From a virus (Duplodnaviria; Caudoviricetes): a DNA stretch of 50,046 bases. Both the position numbers and the translations under genes were made by a program. The stretch covers positions 1 through 50,046 of the IMG/VR virus record IMGVR_UViG_3300045012_000081; one strand, given 5' to 3'. The notes beneath the pieces are model-generated. The model did not search any database. It was not told where the DNA came from and saw nothing but the letters and a program-made list of their open reading frames with translations. This document shows positions 2-44,502 of this stretch, in pieces (position 1 is the stretch's first letter; every line of letters starts with the position of its first letter).

Positions 2-1627
2 TCTGGTATCGAACTAAGCCTCATGATGGGCGAGGCGGGGATGAAGCGAAGTGACTGTTATCTTACGAATGTCGTCCGGAGTCGTCCTCCTGGCGGAGAA
101 ACCTCGGCGTGGATTGCCTCGAACAAGACTGAGGAAGCGGTCTTTCTCTCGCGCGGGGGCATCCGCTACAACGGCCACGTCATTGCACCAGAACTTTACG
201 CCGGGATCATGGACCTCCGTGAGCAGGTGGAAAAGCAGAGACCTAAACTCATCGTGGCCCTGGGAAACGTGGCGCTCTGGGCACTCACCGGGGAGTGGGG
301 CATTGGATCCTGGCGCGGTAGTGAACTTACAGCGACGCTTAGCAGCGATTGGCGCCCGCCCTGCATCCCAACCTACAACCCTGCGGCGATCCTTCGCCAG
401 TGGGCGCTACGACGTGTTGTCGTCCAGGACTTTAGGCGGGCACGAGGCGTATTGGCAAACGGACCAATCAACCCGCGCTATAACTTCCTTGTCGAACCCA
501 CCTTCGAGCAAGCCATCCATGTCCTCGACTTTCTTGCGGATAAACTGGAGTCTGCTGAACAGCCAGTCCCACTCAGCGTCGATATCGAAACCCGCAACTA
601 CCACCTGGCTTGCCTGGGCATTGCGTGGAGTAAAAAAGACGCTATCTGTTTTCCTTTCTTAGACTCTCGGAGGCCAGATGGCTATTGGAATGAGGCAGAG
701 GAAGCGGAGATTGTATTCCGGCTATACCAAATCCTCACACATCCTCGTGCTATCAATATCGGGCAGAACTTCCTTTACGACGCGCAGTATATTTGGCGCT
801 ACTGGCTCTTTATTCCGCGTGCAGTACGCGACACAATGCTCACTCAGCACCTTTGCTTCCCAGGACTACCAAAGAGCCTTGATTTTATTGCGTCGCTCTA
901 TTGCGAATCGTACCGATATTGGAAGGACGATGGGAAAGTTTGGTCCGACTCTATGGACGAGCGCATCCTGTGGAAATATAACTGCGAAGACTGTGTCCGT
1001 ACGTTCGAGTGTAAGGAAGCACTGGATTCGGTCGTGGATAGCCTTGGGCTGCGCGATCAATATGACTTCCAAATGCGGCTCTGGCCCGCAGTCTTGCGTA
1101 TGATGAACCGAGGTATGGCCATCGACAACGTCATGCGCGCGAAGCTCGAGCTCGAGATGCACACCCATGAACGAGGTTTGCTCGAGGACATTGAATACAT
1201 CGTCGGTCATCCACTCAACCCCGGCAGTCCGAAACAAATGAAAGAGTTTTTCTATGGCGAACTACAACTCCCACCGGTATACCAGCGCGGGAAACGAGCT
1301 AAACCTGGTAAAGTCCGACAGCCAAGCTGCGATGACGAATGCCTTAACCGCGCAGCTGCTCGCGAGCCTATCATACGCCCCCTTGTTAACCTTATTCTCG
1401 AGTATCGCTCTGTCCGCGTTTATGCTAGTACCTTTCTCGCAGACCATAGCGATTTCGACGGCCGCATACGTTGCAGCATCAACATCGCAGGCGCGGTTAC
1501 GTTCCGTTTCTCGTCAAGCGAAAACCCCTTTGGCTCTGGAATGAATCTCCAGAACCTGCCGGGCAAGGAGAACAAGACCCGCGCGGAGATGGATGCCGCG
1601 GACAAGGAGCTGCGCCATGCTACCTAA
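2..1627 (+). CDS. DNA polymerase family A, N-terminal part (UDG-like domain + 3'-5' exonuclease + thumb)
   Basis: UDG-4 motifs YLTNVVRSRPP, IVALG, PTYNPAAILR; Exo I DIET, Exo II QNFLYDAQY, Exo III YNCEDC; PolA motifs LNPGSPKQ and TFRFSSSENP..NLQNLP. Confidence 0.9.
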   Translation, partial: SGIELSLMMGEAGMKRSDCYLTNVVRSRPPGGETSAWIASNKTEEAVFLSRGGIRYNGHVIAPELYAGIMDLREQVEKQRPKLIVALGNVALWALTGEWGIGSWRGSELTATLSSDWRPPCIPTYNPAAILRQWALRRVVVQDFRRARGVLANGPINPRYNFLVEPTFEQAIHVLDFLADKLESAEQPVPLSVDIETRNYHLACLGIAWSKKDAICFPFLDSRRPDGYWNEAEEAEIVFRLYQILTHPRAINIGQNFLYDAQYIWRYWLFIPRAVRDTMLTQHLCFPGLPKSLDFIASLYCESYRYWKDDGKVWSDSMDERILWKYNCEDCVRTFECKEALDSVVDSLGLRDQYDFQMRLWPAVLRMMNRGMAIDNVMRAKLELEMHTHERGLLEDIEYIVGHPLNPGSPKQMKEFFYGELQLPPVYQRGKRAKPGKVRQPSCDDECLNRAAAREPIIRPLVNLILEYRSVRVYASTFLADHSDFDGRIRCSINIAGAVTFRFSSSENPFGSGMNLQNLPGKENKTRAEMDAADKELRHAT

Positions 1628-2345
1628 CATCCGCAAGATGTTCGTTCCTGACCCTGGCTTCACGATGTTCGACTTGGATCTCGAGTCCGCGGACCTTCGC
1701 ACTGTTGCATGGGAATCCGACTGCAAGTACTTGAAAGAGTGCTTCAAAGCCGGAAAGAAACCCTATATTGAAATGGGCAAAGAGTTTTATGACAACCCTA
1801 GCTTCTCGAAGAAGGACGAGCCGTTTTACACCCAGTTCAAAAGTCTCTGTCACGGAGGTAACTATCTCGGTAAGGCTGAAAATATTGCGGGACGGATCGG
1901 TCTCGCCGTTTCTGATTGTGTCCGCGTCCAGGGATGGTATTTCAAAAAGTGCCCAGAAGTCGTGGAATGGCATAACAGAACCATACGTCAAATGGACACT
2001 ACAGGAACTGTCCGCAATGCTTTCGGATATAGGAGAAAATTTTTTGACCGCATCGAGGGCACTGTCTATAACGAAGGAGTTGCTTGGATTGGACAATCGA
2101 CAACTTCAATCATCATCAACAAAGGACTCGTCGCGATAGACGAATGGGAGGAGGAAAACCATGGCGGCCTACAGCTGCTCATGCAAGTGCATGACTCTCT
2201 TGTTGGACAGTTTCCCACTGCGGAGACCGCCTTCTTTCTTGACCTCATCCGAGCGCTCTGTACTATCACAGTGCCCTATGAAGACCCAATGGTCATGCCC
2301 GTTGGAATTAAGACTTCTACGATATCTTGGGGAGATTGCAGCTAA
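1617..2345 (+). CDS. DNA polymerase family A, C-terminal catalytic part
   Basis: IRKMFVPD, motif A DLESADLR, motif B KSLCHGGNY, motif C QVHDSLV. AAGGAG at 1604-1609 precedes the ATG at 1617. It lies in the +1 frame relative to the upstream part. Confidence 0.9.
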   Translation: MLPNIRKMFVPDPGFTMFDLDLESADLRTVAWESDCKYLKECFKAGKKPYIEMGKEFYDNPSFSKKDEPFYTQFKSLCHGGNYLGKAENIAGRIGLAVSDCVRVQGWYFKKCPEVVEWHNRTIRQMDTTGTVRNAFGYRRKFFDRIEGTVYNEGVAWIGQSTTSIIINKGLVAIDEWEEENHGGLQLLMQVHDSLVGQFPTAETAFFLDLIRALCTITVPYEDPMVMPVGIKTSTISWGDCS

Positions 2346-34939: not shown

Positions 34940-35173
34940 GTGGCTGAACTAATCAAACCTTTCTCGGTCAAGCAATCGCTCGAGATGAAGCTCTACCGCG
35001 TTGTCAAGTGCGTGGTAGCAATGCCGGGGATTGGGAATACAGATGCCTTCGCGGTCCAGCGCGTCTATGCGTTGCAAGAGGCTCCGACGGTTGCGATGTT
35101 CGTGATCCGAGAGCACGCGGAGCAATATTGCTCTTGGCTGATCGCGCAACAAGTCGAGATCAATCGTGTCTAG
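34940..35173 (+). CDS. hypothetical protein
   Basis: GGAGG RBS, GTG start. Confidence 0.55.
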   Translation: MAELIKPFSVKQSLEMKLYRVVKCVVAMPGIGNTDAFAVQRVYALQEAPTVAMFVIREHAEQYCSWLIAQQVEINRV

Positions 35174-35271
35174 CGCGCACTGGGTGGAGCTTGTGGGAGT
35201 GCTGGTGGCGCTAGCGTTGTTCGCGTGGCTGGTAACGCCTCCGCGCGAGTGAGGTTGTTACAATTTTGTGG

Positions 35272-35300
35272 TTGACAAACCTAGGGTTTTATCCTATCAT
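35272..35300 (+). promoter_or_regulatory. sigma70-type promoter
   Basis: TTGACA (35272-35277), a 17-nt spacer, then TATCAT (35295-35300). Confidence 0.75.
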
Positions 35301-35419
35301 ATAGATAGGGTTTGGCAACGGAGGTTATCATGTAACCCGCATCCGGGCGCGGTACGCTAACACGAGATTAAGTGAATGATACGCGCAACAGGCCCCGCGC
35401 GGTGAAGTCGGGGCCAAGT

Positions 35420-35491
35420 GGGTGGAGCAGGGGCAGTTTAGTGCTTTGGTAAGCACAGAAACTCTGGGTTCGAGTCCTAGTCCACCCGCCA
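35420..35491 (+). tRNA. atypical tRNA-like RNA, Thr(GGU)-like with 8-nt anticodon loop and shortened D region
   Basis: Acceptor GGGTGGA/TCCACCC+G+CCA; T arm CTGGG-TTCGAGT-CCTAG; anticodon arm GTGC-TTTGGTAA-GCAC. Confidence 0.65.
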
Positions 35492-35518
35492 ATAGGCAAG
35501 TGTCAACGGAGACACGTC

Positions 35519-35740
35519 ATGTTAGTTCGACTTCAGTTCATAGTCAGCCTAGGCGACGCAGGGACTGCGCTTGCTTGGCCCGCTGATAACAAACCCCTCG
35601 GCCTTCGCTTAACCTACGAGCCGTTGTCATCCATCGGCTATGGCAGCGAAGCCATCGCAATCGCCGACCTCGATCGCTGGCTCTCCCTCTTTCCTTGCAT
35701 TACTGCGGCCGAGACTGTTGTTCTCGGTTTGGAGCACTGA
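35519..35740 (+). CDS. hypothetical protein
   Basis: GGAG RBS. Confidence 0.5.
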   Translation: MLVRLQFIVSLGDAGTALAWPADNKPLGLRLTYEPLSSIGYGSEAIAIADLDRWLSLFPCITAAETVVLGLEH

Positions 35741-38320: not shown

Positions 38321-38395
38321 GGGTCGCTTAGCTCAGTCGGTAGAGCGTGGCCTGATCAGCTTGCGCGCTGGTTCGAATCCAGCAGCGACCCGCCT
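38321..38395 (+). tRNA. degenerate tRNA-like RNA, Ile(GAU)-like with broken anticodon stem
   Basis: GGGTCGCT/AGCGACCC acceptor; canonical D arm TAGCTCAGTCGGTAGAGC; T arm GCTGG-TTCGAAT-CCAGC; loop CTGATCA in a shortened, mismatched stem; no adjacent CCA. Confidence 0.6.
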
Positions 38396-39359: not shown

Positions 39360-39683
39360 ATGAGCCTATGCATCAAGACCGGCGCGGATCTGTGGATCGT
39401 CTCGCGCAATGCCGTTGTCCACTGCGATGCGTACTACGTCGCGCATGAAGGTGGCGCAGGCAACGAGCCAGGCTGTTACGTCTTTCGCCATGCGCAAGGA
39501 GCTTGGTTTTACCCCTCCGGCAAGGCGCGCGAACAATCCAAGGCCCATTGCCACTTTTGGCTCCTCGACGCAGCCATCGACGCACAGCATCGCATCCTCG
39601 AGCTCGAAACCGCTTACGTCATTGTAGCTCCCGAAGGTGACGTACTCGATAACCTCAACTGGGAAACCGGAGATCACGTATGA
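39360..39683 (+). CDS. hypothetical protein
   Basis: Probable start MSLCIKT; ATGA overlap with rtcB. Confidence 0.5.
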   Translation: MSLCIKTGADLWIVSRNAVVHCDAYYVAHEGGAGNEPGCYVFRHAQGAWFYPSGKAREQSKAHCHFWLLDAAIDAQHRILELETAYVIVAPEGDVLDNLNWETGDHV

Positions 39684-40867
39684 AAGTCATCCAAGAGGCT
39701 GGTCATCGCCCGATCAAAATCTGGACCGACAACGTCGAAGCTAGCGCCATGTCTCAGCTTCTCAACATGGCGCGCATGCCTTTTATCGCCTCCAATGGCG
39801 TAGCTTGCATGCCAGACGTCCACGCAGGCATTGGCGCGACGGTCGGAACCGTCATTGCTACTCATCAAGCTCTCATCCCTGCCGCAGTCGGGGTTGATAT
39901 TGGCTGCGGTATGAATGCTGTACGCTTGTCTCTAAAGGCCAGCGATTTGCCAGATAGCTTGCTTGCGATCCGCCATCAGATTGAGCGGGACGTTCCTCTT
40001 GGCAAGGGTGGCGCGCATCAGCCTAACCGGTTGCCGAGCATCGCCAGCTCCGAGCACGCAATGTGGACTGAACTCGAGCGGATTACTGTGATGCATCCTC
40101 TTCTCGCGAAAAACCATGCGCGGCGGCAGCTTGGCACCCTTGGCTCTGGCAATCACTTCATCGAGCTTTGCGTAGACGAAAACCAAGACGTTTGGATTAT
40201 GCTTCACTCCGGCTCGCGCGGCGTCGGCAACATGATCGGTCGCTACTTTATCGAGCGCGCAAAACGCGAGATGGAGCGGTACTTCATTACGCTCCCCGAC
40301 CAGGACCTCGCCTATTTCCCCGAAAACACGAGCGACTTCAACGACTACGTCGAGGCTATGAACTGGGCGCAAGACTACGCGCTCGAGAACCGGCGCCAGA
40401 TGATGAACGCGATACTTCATGCTTTGCTCGGAAAGGTACCGTCTTTCTCGGTCACGCACGAGGCCATTAACTGCCACCATAACTACACCACGCGGGAGAA
40501 TCATTTTGGCAAAAACCTGTGGATTACGCGCAAAGGAGCAATCCGCGCACGATCTGGTGATATGGGAATCATCCCAGGCAGCATGGGCACGCGTAGTTAC
40601 ATTGTACGAGGCCTTGGGAATACTGAGTCATACTGCAGCTGTAGCCACGGCGCAGGCCGTTGTATGTCCCGTACCGCCGCGCGGCGCCAGTTCACCATCG
40701 CGGACCTCGTTGCCCAGACCGCCGGAGTCGAGTGCCGCAAAGACGAGGCTGTGCTCGACGAGTTACCGTCTGGGTACAAAGACATCGACCAAGTAATGGC
40801 GAATCAAACCGACTTGGTCGAAGTCGTCCATACCCTCAAGCAAGTTCTTTGCGTCAAAGGAGCGTAG
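39680..40867 (+). CDS. rtcB: RtcB 3'-phosphate/5'-OH RNA ligase
   Basis: MPDVHAG, GVDIGCGM, GTLGSGNHFIE, HSGSRG, HHNY, RKGA, PGSMG, SHGAGR, YKDID.VM. Confidence 0.95.
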   Translation: MKVIQEAGHRPIKIWTDNVEASAMSQLLNMARMPFIASNGVACMPDVHAGIGATVGTVIATHQALIPAAVGVDIGCGMNAVRLSLKASDLPDSLLAIRHQIERDVPLGKGGAHQPNRLPSIASSEHAMWTELERITVMHPLLAKNHARRQLGTLGSGNHFIELCVDENQDVWIMLHSGSRGVGNMIGRYFIERAKREMERYFITLPDQDLAYFPENTSDFNDYVEAMNWAQDYALENRRQMMNAILHALLGKVPSFSVTHEAINCHHNYTTRENHFGKNLWITRKGAIRARSGDMGIIPGSMGTRSYIVRGLGNTESYCSCSHGAGRCMSRTAARRQFTIADLVAQTAGVECRKDEAVLDELPSGYKDIDQVMANQTDLVEVVHTLKQVLCVKGA

Positions 40868-43409: not shown

Positions 43410-43666
43410 GACGTAACAACACCAGCGGCATCGTTGGCGTATGTTGGGAGCCCTCCAACCAACGATGGTCAGCTAAAGCCTATAGCGGCGGCAAACGCCA
43501 CCTCCTCTACGAAGGCCCAAACTTTCTAACTGCATGTTGTGCGCGCAAATCCTGGGAAAACCAAGTGCGCAAAGGAGCCAATCATGAAACTGACCTACGA
43601 CGAGCTTTTAGCCCTGTCGTCCCATCGGCAGATCACCTCGCGTGCACAGCTGTCTGCTTACCTTGA
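43406..43666 (+). CDS. stand-alone AP2-like DNA-binding domain protein
   Basis: RRNNTSGIVGVCW....RWSAK...ACCARKSWE. Confidence 0.65.
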   Translation: MRRNNTSGIVGVCWEPSNQRWSAKAYSGGKRHLLYEGPNFLTACCARKSWENQVRKGANHETDLRRAFSPVVPSADHLACTAVCLP

Positions 43667-44192
43667 CAATGACGCGCTCGAGTGCTTGATCTGCGGCAAG
43701 TGCTTCATTAACCTCGGCGCGCATATCAAGCCCGCGCACAACGTCACGGTGATCGAGTACAAGCGCGCCTTCGGTATTCCGCGGCGTTATGGAGTCATCG
43801 GCCGCGCGATGAAAGCGCACCTTCAAGACCTCGCGCACTCTCCGCATCGCATCGAGGAAGCTCGCGCGCTAGGCCAGATCTACGGCCATGACAACGGCGG
43901 ATTGCATCTAACCAAGCCCCCTCTCTACAGCCAACAAACGAGAGGGAATAGCAAACCCAAGGTTTTGCCGACGATAAAACCCGAGGTTATTCAGCAAACT
44001 TACGTCGCGACGCGCAAAACGTTTAACGAGTGGGCCGAAGAGCAGGCTAAACTCAAGGGGCAAACAGAGCCTCCCGTAGATTCTATGAAGACCTACGACG
44101 AACACTCGGCCCAGCACCGACTAGCAAAGCTCGAGGGCCTTATGCTAGTTTTCTACACTGCCCTCAAGGAGTATTTCCGTGAAACTACTTGA
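43584..44192 (+). CDS. MucR/Ros-like zinc-finger protein
   Basis: DALECLICGKCFINLGAHIKPAHNVTVIEYKRAFGIP; AAGGAG RBS. Confidence 0.65.
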   Translation: MKLTYDELLALSSHRQITSRAQLSAYLDNDALECLICGKCFINLGAHIKPAHNVTVIEYKRAFGIPRRYGVIGRAMKAHLQDLAHSPHRIEEARALGQIYGHDNGGLHLTKPPLYSQQTRGNSKPKVLPTIKPEVIQQTYVATRKTFNEWAEEQAKLKGQTEPPVDSMKTYDEHSAQHRLAKLEGLMLVFYTALKEYFRETT

Positions 44193-44502
44193 ATTTCAAA
44201 TGTCTGGTACCGCGCACTCTGCCGCGTACAAAGCCCACAAGGCCGATATCTCCGCCGGCGACGACCTTAACTTCTTGCGCGATCCGCACAACCAGTATGA
44301 CTCTGCCGCGATCAAAGTTTTTTGGCGAGGCGAACACATCGGCTGGGTTCCCAAAAAGCTTGGCGAGGCCAAGGCCATGCTTGATCGTTTGCTCGAAAGC
44401 GAGGAATTCCTCATCGACCCCATTGTCGAGTCCCACGAGGTCGATAACCCGGTTGATATGCAGCTCACCGTCACCGTTGAAATCTATTCCTTCGAGGAGT
44501 AA
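44179..44502 (+). CDS. HIRAN domain protein
   Basis: GDDLNFLRDPHNQYDSAAIKV...HIGWVPK. Confidence 0.8.
   Translation: MKLLEFQMSGTAHSAAYKAHKADISAGDDLNFLRDPHNQYDSAAIKVFWRGEHIGWVPKKLGEAKAMLDRLLESEEFLIDPIVESHEVDNPVDMQLTVTVEIYSFEE

What the first reader, a model, noticed from the sequence alone, without database searches (positions are those of the whole stretch)
35420..35491. tRNA-like RNA with an 8-nt anticodon loop and truncated D arm behind a strong sigma70 promoter
The 7-bp acceptor stem, encoded CCA and T arm are intact. The anticodon arm is a 4-bp GTGC/GCAC stem with loop UUUGGUAA, and only 14 nt separate acceptor and anticodon stems (about 19 in canonical tRNAs). Intact ends with a remodelled middle suggest selection for a non-standard role: quadruplet/frameshift decoder, decoy for anticodon nucleases, or synthetase mimic. 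The G2-C71 pair does not match the E. coli-type Thr identity element C2-G71, so charging is uncertain.
Basis: partly seen in the sequence, partly recalled or inferred. Interest (0 to 1): 0.75.

Follow-up and report, generated by a model that had tools for sequence, protein, structure and literature searches.

The report
Aberrant phage tRNA-Thr-like gene, lineage-specific
A soil phage carries a real but misshapen threonine-tRNA-derived gene inserted into the leader of an early operon; it has no counterpart in related phages and is probably a non-decoding remnant, although a role against host tRNA-cutting defences is not excluded.

Summary
Window 35420-35491 has a perfect 7-bp acceptor stem, a canonical T arm, discriminator G and an encoded CCA. 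Its D region is only 14 nt and its anticodon arm 16 nt (4 bp + 8-nt loop, or 5 bp + 6-nt loop). ARAGORN calls it tRNA-?(Pro|Thr). Rfam tRNA scores 17.7 bits, below the cut-off of 29.

Contigs from two other soil metagenomes repeat it without indels. Their single difference turns a T-stem G.U pair into G-C.

The promoter is real, but it belongs to a conserved early operon. Three relatives have the same promoter-leader-gene layout without the element. Here it lies in a roughly 190-nt insert flanked by a duplicated ribosome-site/start region.

No homologue turned up in 13 related phage records or in any pattern scan, so covariation cannot be tested.

The loop matches the frameshift suppressor SufJ (an extra pyrimidine between positions 31 and 32 of a Thr-GGU loop). 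An ACC-T-AA site ends the first half of a split DNA polymerase. However, that split is old, the second half has its own start, and ACC codons are not avoided.

Best reading: a recently acquired tRNA-Thr derivative that RNase P can probably process but that no longer decodes normally. RtcB and a second odd tRNA are unique to this lineage, which keeps an anti-tRNase role open.

The parts
35272..35300 (+). Sigma70-type promoter TTGACA-17-TATCAT of the early operon. The transcription start is inferred near 35307.
   Evidence: 11 of 12 matches. Promoter-like sites stand at the same position before the homologous gene in G011 (TTGACA-17-TACAAT) and G014 (TTGCGT-17-TATAAT).
35282..35313 (+). Two copies of TAGGGTTT (35282-35289 and 35306-35313) flanking the -10 hexamer. 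Possibly a regulator site.
   Evidence: 6 copies in the window against 0.65 expected; 0 of 100 shuffles reach 6.
35313..35335 (+). First copy of the duplicated leader/ribosome-site/start region: TGGCAACGGAG, then GGAGG, then ATG-TAA (35330-35335). This marks the left edge of the insert.
   Evidence: (direct repeat D1, spacing 188 nt) and the sequence. Both copies are followed by TCATGT.
35391..35415 (+). 7-bp G+C hairpin (GGCCCCG...CGGGGCC, 11-nt loop) 4 nt upstream of the element. It is part of the insert.
   Evidence: Sequence and the fold of the leader.
35420..35491 (+). tRNA-Thr(GGU)-derived tRNA-like gene. Acceptor 35420-26/35481-87; D region 35427-40; anticodon arm 35441-56; variable region 35457-63; T arm 35464-80; discriminator 35488; CCA 35489-91.
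   Evidence: Confirmed in independent contigs.
35416..35428 (+). Region of register ambiguity (AAGT GGG TGGA GC). The alternative ARAGORN acceptor strand is 35416-35422, followed by T8, G9 and D-stem GAGC at 35423-35428.
35501..35521 (+). Second copy of the duplicated region: TGTCAACGGAG, ribosome site GGAGA (35508-35512) and the real ATG at 35519. This marks the right edge of the insert.
   Evidence: and the sequence. GGAGA before the ATG is conserved in L018, G014 and G011.
35519..35740 (+). First gene of the operon (73 aa, no family match), conserved in relatives.
   Evidence: 74% identity to L018; 49% to G014. No Pfam or PHROG match.
38321..38394 (+). Context: second lineage-specific tRNA, Ile(GAT)-like, also with a defective anticodon arm.
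   Evidence: Absent at the equivalent site of L018 and from G011, G012 and G014.
39680..40867 (+). Context: RtcB RNA ligase, a clean lineage-specific insertion.
   Evidence: PF01139, 2e-125. Absent from 9 relatives' records. Flanking genes are adjacent in G011 and G014.

Best explanation
The element is a genuine tRNA-derived gene of Thr(GGU) type. It entered this phage lineage recently inside a roughly 190-nt insert in the 5' leader of a conserved early operon.

It is transcribed from that operon's sigma70-type promoter (inferred). Its intact acceptor/T-arm half, with U at -1, G at +1 and an encoded CCA, should let RNase P and 3' trimming release a 72-nt RNA and leave a short-leadered mRNA (inferred).

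The other half does not match a standard decoder. Four nucleotides are missing at the acceptor/D-arm junction, where a second copy of the 4-nt unit TGGA would make both the acceptor and the D arm canonical. The anticodon arm has 16 nt instead of 17, and the variable region has 6-7 nt.

It is therefore most likely a non-decoding or barely decoding tRNA remnant. At most it serves as a processing site. It is not a conserved functional RNA class.
For: tRNA origin: ARAGORN call, a canonical T loop, a 7-bp acceptor and CCA, and 0 ARAGORN hits in 40 simulated windows.

Non-standard body:
- Rfam scores 17.7 bits against a cut-off of 29.
- Neither acceptor register gives a full cloverleaf.
- The predicted lowest-energy fold is a rod-like hairpin at -29.2 kcal/mol, against -22.9 for the cloverleaf.

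Recent and not conserved:
- It is absent from L018, which is syntenic over 20.2-38.3 kb.
- Among 12 further related records, the only tRNA-model matches are a tRNA-Gly (G021) and one 21-bit match (G018).
- A DNA search of 5 related records gave only a 14-nt match.
- Pattern scans of viral, metagenome and genome collections found no homologue.
- Of 114 phage records with partial blastn matches, none covers 80% of the element.

Insert: a flanking direct repeat, and relatives with promoter, 60-75 nt leader and gene but no element.

No decoding footprint: ACC is used at 17.3 per 1000 codons, against 15.5-22.3 in relatives.
Against: - The acceptor/T-arm half is flawless, while at least three length changes sit in the other half. 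That is not what slow neutral decay of a young insert predicts. Detection bias favours finding such cases, however.
- The only difference in 553 nt (X2) and 301 nt (X3) of strain contigs is T35478C, which turns a T-stem G.U into G-C. It equally strengthens the rival rod-like fold.
- RtcB and a second tRNA with a defective anticodon arm are also unique to this lineage.
- The 3' side of the loop (U33-GGU-A37-A38) is exactly Thr-like.
- No expression, processing or charging data exist.
Confidence: 0.5

Rival explanations
1. Anti-defence RNA. Together with the Ile-like tRNA and RtcB, the element forms a lineage-specific kit against host tRNA-cutting or tRNA-modifying defences. It would act either as a Thr(GGU) tRNA whose altered loop escapes the enzyme, or as an abundant decoy made from a strong promoter. 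RtcB would reseal cleaved tRNAs.
For: - RtcB, the Ile-like tRNA and this element are all missing from the close complete relatives.
- Both tRNA genes have intact acceptor and T arms but altered anticodon arms.
- The promoter is strong.
- Phage tRNAs with anticodon-loop substitutions are proposed to evade tRNases (PMC10264068, passages read).
- A toxin acting on tRNA-Thr(GGU) loops is in print (PMC13617354, listing and start of abstract only).
- The closest RtcB (76% identity, Bordetella phage PHB04) lies about 3 kb from a tRNA cluster.
Against: - The published evasion cases are base substitutions in normal 7-nt loops, not length changes.
- The truncated D region makes decoding doubtful.
- The host and its defences are unknown.
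- There is no conservation beyond near-identical strains.
- RtcB lies 4.2 kb away and is a separate insertion.
- I found no printed case of a decoy tRNA, but I did not search for one specifically.
Confidence: 0.25
2. A working, if unusual, elongator tRNA-Thr that reads ACC/ACU and supplements the host pool.
For: It has a GGU anticodon with U33 and A37-A38, a perfect acceptor stem, an encoded CCA and a canonical T loop. ACC plus ACT make up 391 of 745 Thr codons in 39 long ORFs.
Against: Rfam scores it at 17.7 bits. It has no 7-nt anticodon loop and, in the better acceptor register, no D stem and no U8. G2-C71 and G73 differ from the E. coli Thr identity set (recalled). Relatives manage without it.
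Confidence: 0.1
3. A natural SufJ-type +1 frameshift suppressor. With an extra U between positions 31 and 32 of a Thr(GGU) loop, it would read ACC-T at 1622-1625 (or ACC-C at 1577-1580) as one Thr. That would fuse the two overlapping halves of the family-A DNA polymerase.
For: [quoted passage not shown] The element has the same layout with U.
- The polymerase's first ORF ends GCT ACC TAA, and the +1 frame continues as NIRKMFVPDPG.
- Unsplit homologues exist (L024, L025, L035-L037).
Against: - The split is old. There are 216 homologues at E<=1e-10 in the 133-424 aa range, mostly 234-262 aa. Of 28 fetched, 27 start with Met/Val plus 0-12 residues before the xP(N/S)(I/V/L)R motif.
- The second half has its own AAGGAG-7 nt-ATG at 1604-1619.
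- G011 and G012 share the same +1 overlap but have neither the tRNA nor an ACC before the stop.
- The Leu-Pro conserved in homologues would be lost in the fused product.
- At the observed ACC frequency, about a 38% chance exists of at least one ACC in the 28-codon overlap window (my estimate).
- ACC is not avoided: there are 213 in-frame ACC codons.
- No gene is split in the window relative to G011 or G014.
- The rest of the tRNA body is aberrant.
Confidence: 0.04
4. A chance resemblance, or an attachment-site fragment of a host tRNA, rather than a gene.
For: The Rfam score is below threshold. A 22-nt identity to the T-loop/acceptor strand occurs in a non-tRNA context on a jumbo-phage contig.
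Against: Both acceptor strands, the T arm and CCA are all present. ARAGORN called nothing in 2 Mb of simulated sequence. The window has no tyrosine integrase.
Confidence: 0.02

Closest known systems
Phage-encoded tRNA genes, including degenerate ones (Rfam RF00005)
   Same: It has a 7-bp acceptor, a canonical T arm, an encoded CCA and a Thr-type anticodon. It lies among early genes and is co-transcribed with mRNA. It shows lineage-specific gain and loss, as phage tRNAs generally do (general knowledge).
   Different: It scores 17.7 bits against a cut-off of 29. The D region is 14 nt, the anticodon arm 16 nt and the variable region 6-7 nt. It sits inside the 5' leader of an operon rather than in a tRNA cluster.
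Frameshift suppressor tRNA SufJ of Salmonella (tRNA-Thr3 GGU with C31.5; PMC4238358, passages read)
   Same: The loop layout is identical: stem ending in C31, one extra pyrimidine, then U32-U33-GGU-A37-A38-G39. A SufJ-readable ACC-T quadruplet ends the first polymerase ORF.
   Different: SufJ is a laboratory mutant of an otherwise normal tRNA. Here the extra base is U, which can pair with A38 and close the loop to 6 nt. The 27-43 position would be A.A, the D arm is truncated, and no gene needs suppression.
Phage tRNAs proposed to evade host anticodon nucleases (van den Berg et al. 2023, PMC10264068, passages read; PARIS and retron cases PMC11464382 and PMC11555353, abstracts only)
   Same: It is a phage-borne tRNA with an altered anticodon loop in a genome that also encodes an RNA repair ligase.
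   Different: The described cases keep a 7-nt loop and full decoding ability. This one changes the arm length and lacks a normal D arm. The host tRNA is unknown, so no host-versus-phage comparison is possible.
D-arm-lacking mitochondrial tRNAs and tRNA-like RNase P sites in bacterial and phage polycistronic RNAs (recalled, not searched)
   Same: The D region is short with a preserved acceptor/T-arm stack. That stack is the part RNase P recognises.
   Different: No bacterial or phage translation system is known to me to use D-armless tRNAs. Processing here is inferred only.
YrlA-type Y RNAs beside rtcB
   Same: A tRNA-like RNA in a genome with rtcB.
   Different: There is no Rfam match and no Ro60/TROVE gene in the window. 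The element has its own free CCA end rather than being embedded in a Y RNA stem.

Membership tests
tRNA (Rfam RF00005) | Covariance-model score at or above the gathering score of 29 bits | tested here: not met
   17.7 bits, E=0.6; not listed at gathering level.
tRNA (Rfam RF00005) | 7-bp acceptor stem, discriminator base and 3' CCA | tested here: met
   35420-26/35481-87 form 7 Watson-Crick pairs, followed by G35488 and CCA 35489-91.
tRNA (Rfam RF00005) | 5-bp T stem with a 7-nt TTCRANT-type loop | tested here: met
   CTGGG/TTCGAGT/CCTAG. The G.T pair is G-C in the X2 and X3 contigs.
tRNA (Rfam RF00005) | D arm (3-4 bp stem, U8, A14, G18-G19) compatible with the acceptor stem | tested here: inconclusive
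   It is present only in ARAGORN's register, which costs two acceptor pairs. It is absent in the 7-bp register, where forming a 3-bp G.U stem raises the energy from -22.9 to -20.8 kcal/mol.
tRNA (Rfam RF00005) | 5-bp anticodon stem with a 7-nt loop | tested here: not met
   The arm has 16 nt, read as 5 bp + 6 nt or 4 bp + 8 nt. Independent contigs show no indel.
tRNA (Rfam RF00005) | Aminoacylation and use in translation | not testable with these tools
   No RNA run holds the stretch.
SufJ-type +1 frameshift suppressor tRNA | Thr GGU anticodon with one extra nucleotide between positions 31 and 32 (8-nt loop) | tested here: inconclusive
   The loop sequence fits. However, it requires an A35440.A35457 mismatch as the fifth stem pair, and the extra U can pair with A38.
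SufJ-type +1 frameshift suppressor tRNA | An otherwise normal tRNA-Thr body | tested here: not met
   The D region is truncated and the variable region is 6-7 nt.
SufJ-type +1 frameshift suppressor tRNA | A gene whose expression depends on +1 reading at ACC-N | tested here: not met
   ACC-T-AA exists at 1622-1627. But the polymerase split is conserved with its own start, and no window-specific split gene exists.
Nuclease-evading phage tRNA | Anticodon-loop differences from the host's isoacceptor at the enzyme's site | not testable with these tools
   The host is unknown. Only weak hints exist: the closest RtcB is in Bordetella and Burkholderia phages, and a ROS/MucR regulator is present.
Nuclease-evading phage tRNA | Retained decoding competence | tested here: inconclusive
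   The structure departs from all canonical measures. No functional data exist.
YrlA / Y RNA module | Rfam Y RNA match and an adjacent Ro60 (TROVE) gene | tested here: not met
   No Rfam match and no TROVE match in the window.

The most novel reading that the evidence does not exclude
The element is a natural, phage-encoded SufJ-type frameshift suppressor. It would be a Thr(GGU) tRNA with an extra U at position 31.5 that, at low efficiency, reads ACC-T at the end of the first polymerase ORF as one codon. The phage would then make some full-length fused family-A DNA polymerase alongside the two separately translated halves.
Probability: 0.04. Interest if true: 0.9.

Novelty: new variant of a known kind. 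Interest (0 to 1): 0.38.

Why it matters
If it is only a remnant, it is a well-documented example of how phages pick up and degrade tRNA genes. The insert edges, the duplicated start region and a single likely 4-nt slippage deletion are all visible.

If the RNA is functional, there are two possibilities. It could be a natural tRNA with SufJ loop geometry, which bears on how reading frame is kept and on quadruplet decoding. Or it could be a non-decoding tRNA look-alike used with RtcB against host tRNA-targeting defences, for which no case with altered arm lengths appeared in the papers I read.

In either case it warns annotators that a perfect acceptor/T-arm half does not make a decoder.

Tried and rejected
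1. Close DNA relatives in cultured phages: none by megablast or blastn. An 80-nt query at E<=10 gave 114 records with only T-arm/acceptor matches, and 0 covered 80%.

2. Exact or degenerate pattern scans:
- Viral contigs gave 0 hits three times and 1 hit once.
- That one viral hit (L023) and the one metagenome hit (L020) are the same non-tRNA stretch of a jumbo phage.
- Genome contigs gave 0 hits, then 2 hits. These are a tRNA-Ser and a tRNA-Tyr of unrelated MAGs that share only the acceptor/T-arm strand. I treat them as convergent.

3. Relatives through the 250-aa ORF (L002-L012) are too distant, at most 49% identity, and none carries the element. The 73-aa protein alignment found only L018's contig in viral contigs and nothing in metagenome contigs.

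4. Alignment of the intergenic DNA to L018 gave no reliable homology upstream of the ribosome site.

5. Frameshift-suppressor target: tested and largely rejected.

6. Attachment-site idea: no tyrosine integrase. Y RNA idea: no TROVE gene and no Rfam match.

7. Neighbouring proteins: no Pfam, PHROG, NCBIfam or PDB-sequence hint of further RNA-repair enzymes. The exceptions are RtcB and a weak PD-(D/E)XK match, E=0.0012 and below the cut-off.

8. Expression: no RNA holder was listed among the 13 runs.

9. The X4 run gave no laid contig.

10. Earlier notes of this scan: none exist for this genome or sequence.

11. Supplementary tables of PMC10264068 were not seen. They might list phage tRNAs with unusual loop lengths.

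Full report
WHAT THE WINDOW IS. The 50,046-bp window is a whole IMG/VR virus record, which CheckV rates as 100% complete. It encodes a terminase, portal, major head protein, primase, family-A DNA polymerase, a Sak4-like annealing protein, a ParB-methyltransferase and RtcB. It is far from cultured phages: the terminase is at most 36% identical, and there is no DNA match.

THE OBSERVATION.
- A 7-bp Watson-Crick acceptor stem (35420-26 with 35481-87), discriminator G and an encoded CCA.
- A T arm CTGGG/TTCGAGT/CCTAG.
- A GTGC/GCAC stem around TTTGGTAA.
- Only 14 nt between the acceptor and anticodon stems.

ARAGORN finds it as tRNA-?(Pro|Thr) with a two-base 'anticodon'. It closes the loop with T35445-A35452, giving 5 bp plus 6 nt. 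Infernal aligns it the same way and gives 17.7 bits (E=0.6 for 501 nt and 4227 families), below the gathering score of 29. The other tRNA in the window scores 46.9 bits. ARAGORN called nothing in 40 simulated 50-kb sequences. I therefore take the tRNA ancestry as real.

Contigs from two other soil metagenomes cover the element: X2 over 35000-35552 and X3 over 35340-35640. Each differs at one base only, T35478C, and has no indel. A third, X5, covers 35003-35433 with 7 differences, none in 35420-35433. X4 gave nothing. Only 4 of the 13 listed runs were laid.

TWO REGISTERS, ONE LIKELY DELETION. ARAGORN's model starts 4 nt upstream, at 35416.
- It sacrifices two acceptor pairs (A.C, A.C).
- It gains a normal D arm: T8, G9, stem GAGC/GTTT and loop AGGGGCA.
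- Energies are -22.9 kcal/mol (7-bp register) and -15.9 kcal/mol (ARAGORN register).
- The unconstrained minimum is a rod-like hairpin at -29.2 kcal/mol.

The 5' sequence reads GGG-TGGA-GC. If a second TGGA unit once followed the first, both a 7-bp acceptor and the canonical U8-G9-GAGC would be present. A single 4-nt slippage deletion therefore explains why each register looks half right. This is inference from the sequence. The anticodon arm (16 nt) and the variable region (6-7 nt) are further length departures.

CONTEXT. The TTGACA-17-TATCAT promoter at 35272-35300 is the best sigma70-type match in 31-42 kb, but it is not the element's own.

The closest syntenic relative is L018, with 75% terminase identity and collinearity over window 20.2-38.3 kb. 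It has the downstream 73-aa gene at 74% identity behind a promoter-like region. It has no tRNA or tRNA-like sequence. G014 and G011 likewise have TTGCGT-17-TATAAT and TTGACA-17-TACAAT, a 60-75 nt leader, GGAGA and the homologous gene.

In the window, the leader holds an 11-nt direct repeat: TGGCAACGGAG at 35313 and TGTCAACGGAG at 35501, 188 nt apart. Each copy is followed, after 5-7 nt, by TCATGT. The first copy now gives a ribosome site plus ATG-TAA, and the second gives the real start. The element, an upstream 7-bp G+C hairpin and about 85 nt of unmatched sequence thus form an insert flanked by a duplicated start region.

CONSERVATION. I reached 13 related records: L018, plus 12 found through the polymerase C-fragment.
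- With the Rfam tRNA model at E<=10, 2 of the 12 matched. One is a tRNA-Gly in G021 and the other a 21-bit partial match in G018.
- G011, G012 and G014, the closest complete genomes, had none.
- A 221-nt DNA query against 5 of them gave only a 14-nt match.
- No homologue appeared in any pattern scan or in 50,697 phage records.

The one natural variant, T35478C, turns the T-stem G.U pair into G-C. However, it equally strengthens the competing rod-like fold.

THE FRAMESHIFT LEAD. The loop is C31, then U, then U32-U33-GGU-A37-A38-G39. [quoted passage not shown]

The family-A polymerase is in two ORFs. The first ends GCT ACC TAA at 1627. The second, in the +1 frame, reads MLPNIRKMFVPDPG from ATG 1617. 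Homologues L024 and L025 are unsplit. Reading ACC-T as a quadruplet would fuse the two halves.

Against this:
- 216 proteins (E<=1e-10, searched range 133-424 aa) match the second ORF, mostly at 234-262 aa and 36-86% identity.
- Of 28 fetched, 27 begin with Met/Val plus 0-12 residues before the xP(N/S)(I/V/L)R motif.
- In 12 related loci, 2 share the +1 overlap but end the first ORF GCC TGA. Seven have the C-fragment behind unrelated sequence with its own ribosome site. Three are unsplit.
- AAGGAG lies 7 nt before ATG 1617.
- The conserved Leu-Pro would be lost in a fused product.
- ACC is as frequent here (17.3 per 1000 codons, 213 codons) as in relatives lacking the element (15.5-22.3).
- No other gene is split relative to G011 or G014.

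The split is an old family trait and needs no suppressor. I keep this reading at about 4%.

THE ANTI-DEFENCE LEAD. Whole-genome comparison shows RtcB (39680-40867) as a clean insertion between two genes that are adjacent in G011 and G014. It is absent from 9 relatives' records.

The tRNA-Ile(GAT) gene at 38321-38394 is also lineage-specific, and it too is odd.
- Two of its five anticodon-stem pairs are G.G and T.T.
- Position 37 is C.
- An eighth acceptor pair resembles G-1:C73.
- There is no encoded CCA.

This lineage therefore gained an RNA ligase and two tRNA genes. Both tRNA genes have intact acceptor/T-arm halves and altered anticodon arms. Phage tRNAs are proposed to escape host tRNases through loop substitutions (PMC10264068, passages read). 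The nearest RtcB (76% identity, Bordetella phage PHB04) lies about 3 kb from a cluster of normal tRNAs and a permuted tmRNA. This keeps a counter-defence role plausible, at about 25%. Nothing tested here shows it, and the published cases keep 7-nt loops.

VERDICT.

The element is a recently inserted tRNA-Thr derivative that RNase P can probably process. It lies in an operon leader and is not a standard decoder by any measure I could apply. It has no known relatives.

The flawless acceptor/T-arm half, set against several length changes elsewhere, argues against plain slow decay. Detectors only find cases with that half intact, so this argument is weak.

I rate it as a new variant of a known kind, with moderate interest.

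Noticed in passing
window 2-1627 and 1617-2345 (+): The family-A DNA polymerase is split into two ORFs in the linker before motif A. The second ORF is in the +1 frame, overlaps the first by 11 nt and has its own AAGGAG-7 nt-ATG. The split recurs across many related uncultured phages (216 C-fragment homologues), while some relatives are unsplit. The first ORF runs off the window start and continues from the window end (G011 is contiguous across the ends), so the record is circularly permuted.
   Followed up: partly
window 38321-38394 (+): The tRNA-Ile(GAT) gene (46.9 bits) is itself aberrant. Its anticodon stem has G.G and T.T mismatches, position 37 is C, only 20 nt lie between the D and T stems, it has a possible G-1:C73-like eighth acceptor pair, and it has no encoded CCA. 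It is inserted between a conserved gene end and a conserved terminator hairpin that L018 also has.
   Followed up: partly
window 39680-40867 (+): RtcB is a clean lineage-specific insertion between a 165-aa gene and a 327-aa weak PD-(D/E)XK protein. The closest homologue (76%) is in Bordetella phage PHB04, where it lies about 3 kb from tRNA-Met, tRNA-Asn and tRNA-Pro genes and a permuted tmRNA.
   Followed up: partly
window 35330-35335 (+): A minimal ATG-TAA 'start-stop' ORF lies 5 nt after GGAGG in the operon leader. It looks like a relic of the duplicated start region left by the insertion.
   Followed up: partly
window 1758, 6062, 22337, 31670, 35282, 35306: The octamer TAGGGTTT occurs 6 times against 0.65 expected. 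Two copies bracket the -10 hexamer of the 35272 promoter, and similar CTAGGG motifs surround the equivalent promoter in L018. It may be a regulator site.
   Followed up: no
L023 5143-5164 (= L020 893-914), minus strand: A 416-kb jumbo-phage contig holds a 22-nt stretch identical to the element's T loop, T stem and acceptor 3' strand. The context is not a tRNA, and it lies about 1.1 kb from a cluster of five tRNA genes. It may be chance or a tRNA fragment.
   Followed up: no
window 43539-44502 (+): A ROS/MucR-type regulator (1.8e-08) and a HIRAN-domain protein (6.2e-11) lie among the early genes. With the RtcB affinities, these hint at a proteobacterial host, but no host was established.
   Followed up: no
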